The notes below the pieces were generated by a model that was given only the letters and a program-made list of their open reading frames with translations, was not told where the DNA came from and searched no databases. This document shows, one piece after another, positions 27,955 to 28,306 of a stretch of DNA of 64,000 nt. Position 1 is the stretch's first letter. Each line of letters starts with the position of its first letter. A program made the translations under genes and the position numbers. Origin of the DNA: Escherichia coli (GTDB lineage: Bacteria; Pseudomonadota; Gammaproteobacteria; Enterobacterales; Enterobacteriaceae); assembly GCF_044324875.1 (NCBI RefSeq), contig NZ_CP172185.1; one strand, 5' to 3'.

Positions 27955-28130
27955 TCATTCATCGCCCCACTCATCACAATATGCTTCGACCGGAGTTTTT
28001 CCTGCTTCGTAGTCATCACGCCAGGCTTCAGCATCAGCAGCACTTCCACCACGTAACTCTGCATAATCCATTAACAGTTCATGCCATTCTTCAAAACTGA
28101 CGTTGTATTTAGTTGAACCAAAACCAGCCA
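27955..28130 (-). CDS. Small acidic protein (58 aa), below the ORF-track size cutoff
   Basis: Hand translation of minus strand: MAGFGSTKYNVSFEEWHELLMDYAELRGGSAADAEAWRDDYEAGKTPVEAYCDEWGDE. Confidence 0.4.
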
Positions 28131-28306
28131 TTTTGTTCTTCCTCTTCGTCTTTTATTTCGTGATATGAGTAATTGCAGTAGTTAAAGAAAATTTCTTTTG
28201 CTTCGTCATGAATTTCATCAGGTGTTGCGTCATCGTCCACTTCGAATACATCCTCAAAATCTCCACCAGCTATTCCAGTTTCAATAATTATTTTGAACTT
28301 TCGCAT
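28109..28306 (-). CDS. Small acidic protein (65 aa)
   Basis: ORF track; highly acidic (FEVDDDATPDEIHDEAKE, KDEEEEQNGW). Confidence 0.4.
   Translation of the reverse strand: MRKFKIIIETGIAGGDFEDVFEVDDDATPDEIHDEAKEIFFNYCNYSYHEIKDEEEEQNGWFWFN

What the first reader, a model, noticed from the sequence alone, without database searches (positions are those of the whole stretch)
27955..28306. Two tandem small, highly acidic proteins next to the replication module
A 65-aa ORF (28109..28306) and a 58-aa ORF below the track cutoff (27955..28130) encode very acidic small proteins (runs such as FEVDDDATPDEIHDE and KDEEEEQNGW). Small acidic early phage proteins are often DNA mimics or inhibitors of host defence or DNA-metabolism proteins. 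The family is not recognised; function is inference only.
Basis: inference. Interest (0 to 1): 0.45.

Follow-up and report, generated by a model that had tools for sequence, protein, structure and literature searches.

The report
Two small acidic mobile-element proteins
Two real, conserved, very acidic mini-proteins of unknown function sit in the early operon of an E. coli prophage; both belong to catalogued but untested families, and whether they inhibit a host protein is still only an inference.

Summary
On the minus strand, orfA (28109..28306, 65 aa, pI 4.06, net -14) and orfB (27955..28131, 58 aa, pI 4.08, net -11) are the two most acidic ORFs in the window. Both are real genes: dN/dS is 0.03-0.22, homologues are widespread, and AlphaFold models are confident (pLDDT 87 and 89). 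orfA is Pfam DUF7167 / PHROG 1997. orfB matches the C-terminal part of PHROG 519. They are independent modules, joined here only by overlapping stop and start codons. orfA occurs alone in Klebsiella, Enterococcus and Lactococcus phages. orfB occurs alone in Ackermannviridae, Mu-like prophages and 554 plasmids, mostly conjugative IncI2. Strong negative charge is conserved across both families. No fold or sequence match to any solved structure was found, known DNA mimics included, and neither family appears in an anti-defence catalogue. The only published claim is a marginal machine-learning anti-CRISPR call. Best guess (about 0.35): each is a stand-alone acidic decoy that binds a nucleic-acid-binding surface of a conserved host or defence protein. 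No target is known. These are ordinary conserved hypotheticals and reasonable candidates for screening.

The parts
28109..28306 (-). orfA: 65-aa DUF7167 / PHROG 1997 protein. It has a beta-hairpin (residues 2-9 and 16-23), an acidic helix (29-43), an extended aromatic segment (44-52) and a disordered poly-Glu tail. This allele carries a 5-residue stop-loss extension, WFWFN.
   Evidence: ORF list. Pfam PF23768 E=2.8e-14 and phrog_1997 E=2.7e-30. AF2 pLDDT 86.7. dN/dS 0.033. Most relatives end ...EEEEQNG*.
27955..28131 (-). orfB: 58-aa mini three-helix bundle (helices 13-26, 34-42, 47-55) with an aromatic core (F13, W16, W37, Y41, Y51, W55) and an acidic surface. It corresponds to the C-terminal part of the PHROG 519 profile.
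   Evidence: ORF list. phrog_519 E=1.8e-22, profile positions 76-137 of 143. AF2 pLDDT 89.1. Alignment A3 has W37 invariant. dN/dS 0.06-0.22.
28109..28131 (-). orfA/orfB overlap. In most relatives it is the 8-nt ATGGCTGA (orfB start inside the orfA stop). Here nt 28124 is G instead of A, so TGA becomes TGG (orfA gains WFWFN) and orfB Asp3 becomes Gly. A GAGG Shine-Dalgarno motif for orfB (28144..28141) lies inside the poly-Glu codons of orfA.
   Evidence: Sequence. Comparison with ArgO145 and pPE4. Relatives. Both alleles are on about 1000 contigs.
28313..28335 (-). Candidate structured ribosome-binding site of orfA: AGGAG (28335..28331), then a hairpin GCCACCC-GAAA-GGGCGGT (28330..28313), then AGUGAA and the AUG at 28306. 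Folding of the hairpin would bring the Shine-Dalgarno motif to about 7 nt from the start codon.
   Evidence: Sequence. The element is conserved with orfA across a mosaic junction in ArgO145, and the stem is perfect in relatives. It appears in the MFE fold, but the z-score is only -1.36. Its function is inferred.
27851..27958 (-). 5' fragment of the gene translationally coupled to orfB (ATGA overlap). The intact gene encodes 171 aa (PHROG 660, function unknown) and is cut here by an insertion sequence. The 3' remainder is 25484..25912.
   Evidence: Comparison with the uninterrupted locus L001. phrog_660 E=1.7e-73.
25913..27866 (+). IS100kyp-family (IS21-like) insertion sequence of 1954 bp (istA 25999..27021, istB 27018..27800) with a 5-bp target duplication GTAAC. 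It lies 88 bp downstream of the orfB stop codon.
   Evidence: BLAST against L001. Ends and duplication. RefSeq labels. The junction is absent from 5426 complete E. coli genomes.

Best explanation
orfA and orfB are two real, separately evolving accessory genes of mobile DNA. In this Rac/lambdoid-type E. coli prophage they lie side by side in the early-right operon, between the replication genes and Q. orfB is translated by coupling to orfA. Each encodes one autonomous mini-domain. orfA is a beta-hairpin-plus-helix domain with a poly-Glu tail. orfB is a three-helix bundle on an aromatic core. The solvent-exposed surface of each is dominated by conserved Asp/Glu. The most likely mode of action (inferred, not shown) is that each works alone as a stoichiometric acidic decoy: it binds a basic, nucleic-acid-binding surface on a conserved host or host-defence protein and blocks it when the element becomes active. 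orfA may act as a dimer. For orfB the benefit must be general to incoming or activated mobile DNA, because the same domain sits in temperate, virulent and transposable phages and in conjugative plasmids. SHOWN: the genes are real and under purifying selection; their folds, family membership and distribution; and the conserved negative charge. INFERRED: binding, inhibition, dimerisation and the kind of target. The target is unknown.
For: Real genes: dN/dS 0.033 and 0.06-0.22; 93 orfA homologues at E<=1e-3 in the exhaustive representatives search and 157 orfB homologues in the word-index profile search; confident AF2 models. Acidity is selected, not incidental: every aligned family member has pI below 5, and acidic positions are conserved (orfA E22, D24-26, 29-31, 33-34, E38; orfB E15, D33, E35, D39-40, E42, D53-54), while the conserved hydrophobic and aromatic residues fit the core. 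Independence of the two genes: orfA occurs alone in Klebsiella Guernseyvirinae, Enterococcus Herelleviridae and metagenomic phages. orfB occurs alone in Ackermannviridae, Mu-like prophages of Aquitalea, Aeromonas contigs, and 554 plasmids of which 516 are conjugative. High conservation across elements of distant hosts points to a conserved target: orfB is 52-58% identical between the E. coli prophage, Vi01-like phages and Aquitalea, and orfA is about 40% identical to Enterococcus phage proteins. Both genes always sit in runs of small variable accessory genes. Tandem-duplicated DUF7167 proteins exist (P0236, P0250), consistent with a dimeric working unit. In size and acidic fraction (26-29%) they resemble the smallest known DNA mimics, T7 gp5.9 and phi29 p56 (own knowledge).
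Confidence: 0.35

Rival explanations
1. Strict DNA mimicry. The carboxylates of one or both proteins imitate a stretch of DNA backbone and competitively block a DNA-binding enzyme, such as a type I restriction enzyme, RecBCD, H-NS/HU or uracil-DNA glycosylase, as Ocr, ArdA, Arn, gp5.9 and p56 do.
For: Family-wide pI of 4.1-4.2 and conserved acidic positions. On the orfA helix, the acidic residues at 30/31, 34 and 38 follow an i, i+4, i+8 spacing. Tandem duplicates suggest a dimer. orfB occurs on both phages and conjugative plasmids, like ArdA. This prophage has a RecE-like exonuclease but no Pfam-recognisable Gam or RecT in the proteins scanned on the int-side arm, so an anti-RecBCD activity is not otherwise accounted for.
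Against: Neither protein resembles any solved mimic in fold or sequence, although mimics do not share a fold. Charge geometry was not measured. The monomers are only about 50 structured residues, enough for a short DNA footprint. One orfA homologue lies in the same operon as a GamL gene, which argues against a redundant anti-RecBCD role there.
Confidence: 0.15
2. They are accessory factors of the element's own DNA metabolism, for example modulators or adaptors of a phage exonuclease, annealase, SSB or replisome, rather than inhibitors of host proteins.
For: Here they follow O, P and a Ren-like gene. orfA homologues overlap or abut exonuclease genes and lie near a gp2.5-like SSB and DNA polymerase in Klebsiella phages. 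One lies directly after an 'exonuclease' in Enterococcus phage MDA2. Another follows GamL-RecT-Gp157 on a metagenomic contig. One homologue is fused to a YopX domain.
Against: There is no constant neighbour. orfB lies after the major capsid gene in Ackermannviridae, between lysis and terminase genes in Mu-like prophages, and at the head of an SPFH/NfeD/T4SS operon in IncI2 plasmids. Early phage regions almost always contain DNA-metabolism genes, so proximity to them is weak evidence.
Confidence: 0.15
3. orfB (PHROG 519) is an anti-CRISPR protein.
For: Machine-learning predictors flagged PHROG 519 members of five Kuttervirus genomes as anti-CRISPR candidates (PMC9409062). The protein is small, acidic, and found on both phages and plasmids. 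One plasmid copy lies about 2.4 kb from a CRISPR-associated gene cluster (Cas6, helicase, Csf2).
Against: The scores are marginal (PaCRISPR 0.54 and 0.48 against a threshold of 0.5) and untested. There is no adjacent HTH (aca-type) gene here. There is no similarity to any solved Acr and no motif hit in EVADES. About 55% identity across elements of hosts with different CRISPR types is unlike the narrow range usual for Acrs. The E. coli and Salmonella type I-E systems are largely H-NS-silenced (own knowledge).
Confidence: 0.06
4. They have some other role unrelated to nucleic-acid-binding targets, for example a small regulator or chaperone of membrane, lysis or assembly processes.
For: orfB neighbours include SPFH/NfeD membrane-scaffold genes in IncI2 plasmids, lysis genes in Mu-like prophages and capsid genes in Ackermannviridae.
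Against: These neighbours differ from element to element. There are no transmembrane or signal features. Conserved acidity is not explained by this role.
Confidence: 0.1
5. The ORFs are chance reading frames or decaying remnants without function.
For: Both are short. The prophage is degenerate, with two IS insertions. One relative (PhiR42_1) carries an orfA with in-frame stops.
Against: dN/dS is well below 1. Homologues reach 35-60% identity in unrelated phages and plasmids. Curated Pfam and PHROG families exist. The predicted folds are confident.
Confidence: 0.01

Closest known systems
Pfam DUF7167 (PF23768) / PHROG 1997
   Same: orfA is a full-length member: 53.4 bits against a cut-off of 24.4, and PHROG E=2.7e-30. 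It shares the conserved MRKFKV-IETG...FEV-DDAT-EEIEE-A-E-FFN...W-Y pattern and RefSeq labels it as such.
   Different: This allele has lost its stop codon and carries five extra residues (WFWFN). The family has no assigned function, so membership says nothing about mechanism.
PHROG 519 (unknown function; the small protein encoded next to DUF1187 genes in prophages and IncI2 plasmids)
   Same: orfB matches at E=1.8e-22 and is 86% identical to the IncI2 plasmid protein WP_000753050.
   Different: Only profile positions 76-137 of 143 are matched. The N-terminal part of the profile appears to correspond to a separate upstream DUF1187 gene or to read-through fusions (P0145). Here the upstream gene is DUF7167 instead.
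T7 gp5.9 and phi29 p56, the smallest known phage DNA mimics (own knowledge)
   Same: They are 52-56 aa, strongly acidic, early-expressed and stand-alone. They work as dimers that occupy a DNA-binding site (RecBCD for gp5.9, UDG for p56).
   Different: No sequence or fold similarity was detected. orfA topology is beta-beta-alpha plus an extended segment, and orfB is a three-helix bundle. No target or binding is shown.
Ocr / ArdA / Arn, anti-restriction DNA mimics of phages and conjugative elements (own knowledge)
   Same: They have a high negative charge. Like ArdA, orfB occurs on both phages and conjugative plasmids.
   Different: Those proteins are about two to three times larger and elongated, with charges laid along a DNA-like path. 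No homology was found, and no restriction-alleviation test exists for orfA or orfB.
Lambda nin-region small proteins (NinD, NinE, NinF, NinH)
   Same: They occupy the same genomic slot, between the replication genes and Q, and have a similar size (own knowledge of lambda; order here).
   Different: No Pfam match to any Nin family at E<=1.

Membership tests
Pfam DUF7167 (PF23768) | HMM score above the curated gathering threshold over the whole domain | tested here: met
   orfA scores 53.4 bits against 24.4, covering residues 2-53 and profile positions 1-60 of 60.
PHROG 1997 | Full-length profile match | tested here: met
   E=2.7e-30, positions 1-57 of 57.
PHROG 519 | Profile match | tested here: met
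   orfB E=1.8e-22, but only to profile positions 76-137 of 143.
PHROG 519 | Presence of the N-terminal (DUF1187-like) part of the profile | tested here: not met
   orfB starts at profile position 76. DUF1187 is a separate upstream gene in plasmids and other prophages.
DNA-mimic proteins (Ocr, ArdA, Arn, gp5.9, p56, Ugi) | Strongly acidic protein (pI about 3-5) | tested here: met
   pI 4.06 and 4.08. The family maxima are 4.96 and 4.94.
DNA-mimic proteins (Ocr, ArdA, Arn, gp5.9, p56, Ugi) | Surface carboxylates spaced and curved like a DNA phosphate backbone | not testable with these tools
   Models were made but no coordinates were returned. Only sequence-level helix periodicity could be read.
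DNA-mimic proteins (Ocr, ArdA, Arn, gp5.9, p56, Ugi) | Binds a DNA-binding protein in competition with DNA | not testable with these tools
   This needs biochemistry or co-folding.
DNA-mimic proteins (Ocr, ArdA, Arn, gp5.9, p56, Ugi) | Homology or fold similarity to a known mimic (not strictly defining, since mimics are polyphyletic) | tested here: not met
Anti-CRISPR proteins | Similarity to a validated Acr | tested here: not met
   No PDB sequence or fold hit. No motif hit in the EVADES supplements. Only marginal machine-learning scores exist for PHROG 519.
Anti-CRISPR proteins | Adjacent aca-type HTH regulator gene | tested here: not met
   The neighbours are a zinc-ribbon protein upstream and a PHROG 660 protein downstream. 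Neither has an HTH hit.
Anti-CRISPR proteins | Inhibits CRISPR-Cas interference | not testable with these tools
   This needs an experiment.
Catalogued anti-defence proteins (EVADES, 268 entries) | Listed by Pfam family or by sequence | tested here: not met
   DUF7167, PF23768, DUF1187 and six sequence motifs are absent from the 10 supplementary files.
Lambda Nin proteins (NinD/E/F/H) | Pfam family match | tested here: not met
   No Nin family hit at E<=1.
Known anti-phage defence components (PADLOC) | HMM match | tested here: not met
   No hit at E<=1.

The most novel reading that the evidence does not exclude
orfA (DUF7167) and orfB (PHROG 519 C-terminal domain) are two new, unrelated families of mini acidic decoy or DNA-mimic inhibitors. 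orfB would be a broad-range inhibitor shared by lambdoid, Mu-like and Ackermannviridae phages and by IncI2 (mcr-1) conjugative plasmids. It would neutralise one conserved proteobacterial DNA-binding defence or nucleoid protein, and so help mobile DNA, including colistin-resistance plasmids, to establish in new hosts.
Probability: 0.18. Interest if true: 0.6.

Novelty: already known. Interest (0 to 1): 0.3.

Why it matters
As they stand, these are two ordinary conserved hypothetical genes already present in Pfam, PHROG and RefSeq, so the window adds nothing new about them. Their value is as candidates for testing. Both families are tiny and confidently folded, and strong negative charge is conserved across each family. 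Both are very widespread: orfB is in roughly a quarter of complete E. coli genomes, in Vi01-like therapeutic-type phages and in hundreds of IncI2 plasmids carrying mcr-1. Yet no member of either family has been tested. If either blocks a host defence or a DNA-handling protein, it would add a new minimal inhibitor scaffold. For orfB it could also affect phage host range and the spread of resistance plasmids.

Tried and rejected
1. NCBIfam and PADLOC scans: no hits.
2. PDB sequence searches with single proteins and with family profiles: nothing significant.
4. Foldseek of orfA against BFVD: only uncharacterised phage proteins. afdb50 was unavailable.
5. The 'DUF5419' label on the Morganella phage Mecenats66 homologue: no such match in the current Pfam copy and no literature.
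6. Literature searches for DUF7167, DUF5419, DUF1187, the PHROG ids and the RefSeq accessions. These found only one machine-learning Acr prediction. A second hit was PHROG 5197, not 519, and so a false lead.
7. EVADES and Silas 2025 supplements searched by family name and sequence motif: nothing.
8. A conserved neighbour that would reveal a partner: none found.
9. The idea that orfA and orfB form an obligate pair: rejected, because each occurs without the other outside enteric lambdoid phages, and orfB pairs with DUF1187 elsewhere.
10. Programmed frameshift fusion of orfA and orfB: rejected. The overlap is a plain stop/start overlap in relatives, and the longer 'fusion' database entries are read-throughs or miscalls.
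11. Whether the IncI2 orfB copy lies in the plasmid leading region: inconclusive. It is about 15 kb from mobC/oriT on the non-relaxase side, beyond repA.
12. Rfam scan: no RNA family overlaps the finding.

Full report
**Observation**

The two ORFs exist, but on the minus strand.
- orfA is 28109..28306 (65 aa).
- orfA has 29% Asp+Glu, net charge -14 and pI 4.06. orfB has 26% Asp+Glu, net charge -11 and pI 4.08.
- Among 94 greedy non-overlapping ORFs in the window they are the two most acidic. Their charge per residue is -0.22 and -0.19, against -0.15 for the next ORF.
- orfA and orfB overlap by 23 nt. orfB overlaps the next ORF by ATGA.

**Setting**

The window is an E. coli Rac/lambdoid-type prophage.
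- A chicken isolate (NZ_CP080260, locus L001) matches at 100% from 27867 onwards. About 1534 of 5426 complete E. coli genomes carry the segment.
- The gene order on the minus strand is: HTH repressor pair, YdaT, DUF1376 (O-like), P, DUF977/Ren-like, a 118-aa zinc-ribbon protein, orfA, orfB, a 171-aa PHROG 660 gene, ParDE on the other strand, DUF968, RusA, Q.
- The genes therefore lie in the variable nin-like stretch of the early-right operon, two genes away from P.
- A 1954-bp IS100kyp-family element (25913..27866, target duplication GTAAC) cuts the 171-aa gene 88 bp downstream of orfB. That junction is in none of the 5426 complete genomes.

**Are they genes?**

Yes.
- dN/dS against phage ArgO145 is 0.033 for orfA (12 nucleotide differences, 2 amino-acid changes). 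For orfB it is 0.06-0.22.
- The exact proteins are each recorded on about 1000 contigs.
- orfA is Pfam DUF7167 (53.4 bits against a cut-off of 24.4) and PHROG 1997 (E=2.7e-30). orfB matches PHROG 519 (E=1.8e-22), but only its C-terminal part.
- An exhaustive HMMER search gave 93 orfA relatives, mostly stand-alone proteins of 51-60 aa at 35-55% identity.
- A profile search gave 157 orfB relatives in Enterobacterales, Aeromonas and the betaproteobacterium Aquitalea.

**Distribution and independence**

orfA:
- It occurs in enteric lambdoid and Stx2a phages. It also occurs, without orfB, in Klebsiella Guernseyvirinae, where it abuts an exonuclease near a gp2.5-like SSB and DNA polymerase.
- It occurs in Enterococcus Herelleviridae, directly after an 'exonuclease' gene.
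- It occurs on a metagenomic contig downstream of GamL-RecT-Gp157.
- Foldseek also links it to phAPEC8 and Lactococcus phage 949 proteins.

orfB:
- It occurs in 199 phage records. In Ackermannviridae (Vi01, CBA120 orf183) it lies just after the major capsid gene. It is also in Morganella phage Mecenats66, Enterobacter phage Arya and Escherichia phage Alux-21.
- In Mu-like prophages it lies between the lysis and terminase genes.
- It occurs on 554 plasmids, of which 516 are conjugative.
- In IncI2 mcr-1 plasmids an 86%-identical copy sits in the operon CaiF/GrlA-like regulator, DUF1187, orfB, SPFH, NfeD, then the T4SS genes. There too it overlaps the stop codon of the upstream gene.

The two genes are a cassette only in enteric lambdoid phages. 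Elsewhere they travel separately, and orfB is not phage-specific.

**The junction**

- Most relatives read ...CAA AAT GGC TGA for orfA, with orfB starting at the embedded ATG (ATGGCTGA).
- In the window, nucleotide 28124 is G instead of A. That removes the orfA stop codon (adding WFWFN) and changes orfB Asp3 to Gly. Both alleles are common.
- The GAGG Shine-Dalgarno motif of orfB lies inside the poly-Glu codons of orfA.
- Upstream of orfA, an AGGAG is separated from the AUG by a GAAA-loop hairpin. The hairpin is conserved together with orfA even where the sequence further upstream changes. If the hairpin folds, the spacing becomes optimal. This is a candidate split ribosome-binding site, not tested further (z-score only -1.36).

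**Structure**

- AlphaFold2 with family alignments gave confident models.
- orfA (pLDDT 86.7) has a beta-hairpin at residues 2-9 and 16-23, a helix at 29-43, and then an extended stretch with alternating conserved aromatics at 44, 46 and 48. Its acidic tail is disordered.
- orfB (pLDDT 89.1) has three short helices at 13-26, 34-42 and 47-55.
- The conserved hydrophobic and aromatic residues fit the cores (orfB F13, W16, L20, W37, Y41, W55). The conserved Asp/Glu residues fall on the exposed positions.
- Acidity is a trait of both families. The orfA family has median net charge -11 (range -18 to -4). The orfB family has median net charge -9 (range -15 to -3). No member has pI above 5.
- Tandem-duplicated DUF7167 proteins and a DUF7167-YopX fusion exist. 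The duplicates, together with the unpaired extended segment, suggest that orfA works as a dimer. This is an inference.

**Comparison with known proteins**

- Profile searches of all PDB sequences found nothing.
- NCBIfam and PADLOC gave nothing.
- The EVADES catalogue of 268 anti-defence proteins and the Silas 2025 accessory-gene supplements contain neither the family names nor the sequence motifs.
- The only published statement found is that PHROG 519 proteins of Kuttervirus phages score marginally as anti-CRISPRs in machine-learning predictors (PaCRISPR 0.54, threshold 0.5), with no experiment (PMC9409062).
- One contextual hint is weak. In an Aquitalea Mu-like prophage the gene after orfB has a sub-threshold Acb2/Tad1-hairpin hit (E=9e-4, 19.9 bits against a cut-off of 27).

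**Interpretation**

- What is shown: two real, independently mobile mini-proteins whose strong negative charge is under selection.
- What I infer as most likely (about 0.35): each is a stand-alone acidic decoy that binds a basic, nucleic-acid-binding surface of a conserved host or defence protein.
- The argument rests on four points:
  - the conserved charge;
  - the location among variable accessory genes;
  - the high sequence conservation across elements of distant hosts, which implies a conserved target;
  - for orfB, its sharing between phages of three lifestyles and conjugative plasmids.
- Strict DNA mimicry is a narrower version of this idea (about 0.15).
- The main alternative is a role in the element's own replication or recombination (about 0.15). 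It fits the neighbours of orfA but not the contexts of orfB.
- Anti-CRISPR activity (about 0.06) rests only on marginal predictions.
- Chance ORFs are excluded.

**Verdict**

The genes are already catalogued families of unknown function. Interest is modest (0.3): nothing surprising was found. However, both families, and orfB in particular, are unusually widespread untested candidates for a minimal inhibitor of host DNA-handling or defence proteins.

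Noticed in passing
window 25913..27866 (+): An IS100kyp-family (IS21-like) element of 1954 bp, carrying istA/istB and flanked by a 5-bp duplication GTAAC, splits the 171-aa PHROG 660 gene just downstream of orfB. This junction is absent from all 5426 complete E. coli genomes searched, so the insertion is probably recent. It should be polar on Q and on late-gene expression.
   Followed up: yes
window 33888..37654 (+): A second insertion sequence of the IS3 family splits a RecE-like gene (Exonuc_VIII plus an Rv2179c-like exonuclease domain). Its parts are an HTH_Tnp_1 ORF at 35991..36317, an rve ORF at 36314..37204 and an Rfam ALIL frameshift pseudoknot at 36272..36388. No Pfam-recognisable RecT or Gam was found in the scanned int-side proteins. 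The prophage looks degenerate.
   Followed up: partly
window 32704..32892 (+): Rfam matches above gathering score to isrK (32704..32780) and to C4 antisense RNA (32805..32892). Both lie inside the Rha-family ORF 32653..33501, suggesting an RNA-controlled antirepressor-type module as in P1/P7 immI and the Salmonella isrK locus.
   Followed up: no
window 28124 (-): A single A-to-G change relative to most relatives removes the orfA stop codon (TGA to TGG, adding WFWFN) and changes orfB Asp3 to Gly. Both the 65-aa and the 60-aa alleles are recorded on about 1000 contigs.
   Followed up: yes
window 28313..28335 (-): An AGGAG is followed by a GAAA-tetraloop hairpin (GCCACCC/GGGCGGT, perfect in relatives) and then AGUGAA-AUG of orfA. 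This is a candidate split Shine-Dalgarno site that needs the hairpin for correct spacing. It is conserved with orfA across a mosaic junction in phage ArgO145.
   Followed up: partly
L027 8001..8177 (IncI2 plasmid NZ_CP030766.1, pMCR-1): An orfB homologue (86% identical) is a standard gene of IncI2 mcr-1 conjugative plasmids. It lies in the operon CaiF/GrlA-like regulator, DUF1187, orfB, SPFH, NfeD, upstream of the T4SS genes. In total 554 plasmids carry a homologue, and 516 of them are conjugative.
   Followed up: partly
L022 5159..5359 (Aquitalea Mu-like prophage): The 66-aa gene immediately after the orfB homologue has a sub-threshold match to the Acb2/Tad1 hairpin domain (E=9e-4, 19.9 bits against a cut-off of 27). 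This may be a small anti-defence cluster between the lysis and terminase genes.
   Followed up: partly
window 24717..25279 (+): A ParD/ParE toxin-antitoxin pair is inserted in the opposite orientation within the nin-like region, as annotated in the identical locus L001.
   Followed up: no
window 20978..21131 (-): Two prophage tRNA genes lie downstream of Q: tRNA-Arg (TCT) and a CAT-anticodon tRNA. ARAGORN calls the second one Met and RefSeq calls it Ile.
   Followed up: no
L028 8545..12171 (Klebsiella plasmid pKP-13-14-NDM-9): A distant orfB homologue (47% identical, at L028 6001..6183) lies about 2.4 kb upstream of a plasmid CRISPR-associated gene cluster annotated as Cas6, a helicase and Csf2.
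   Followed up: no
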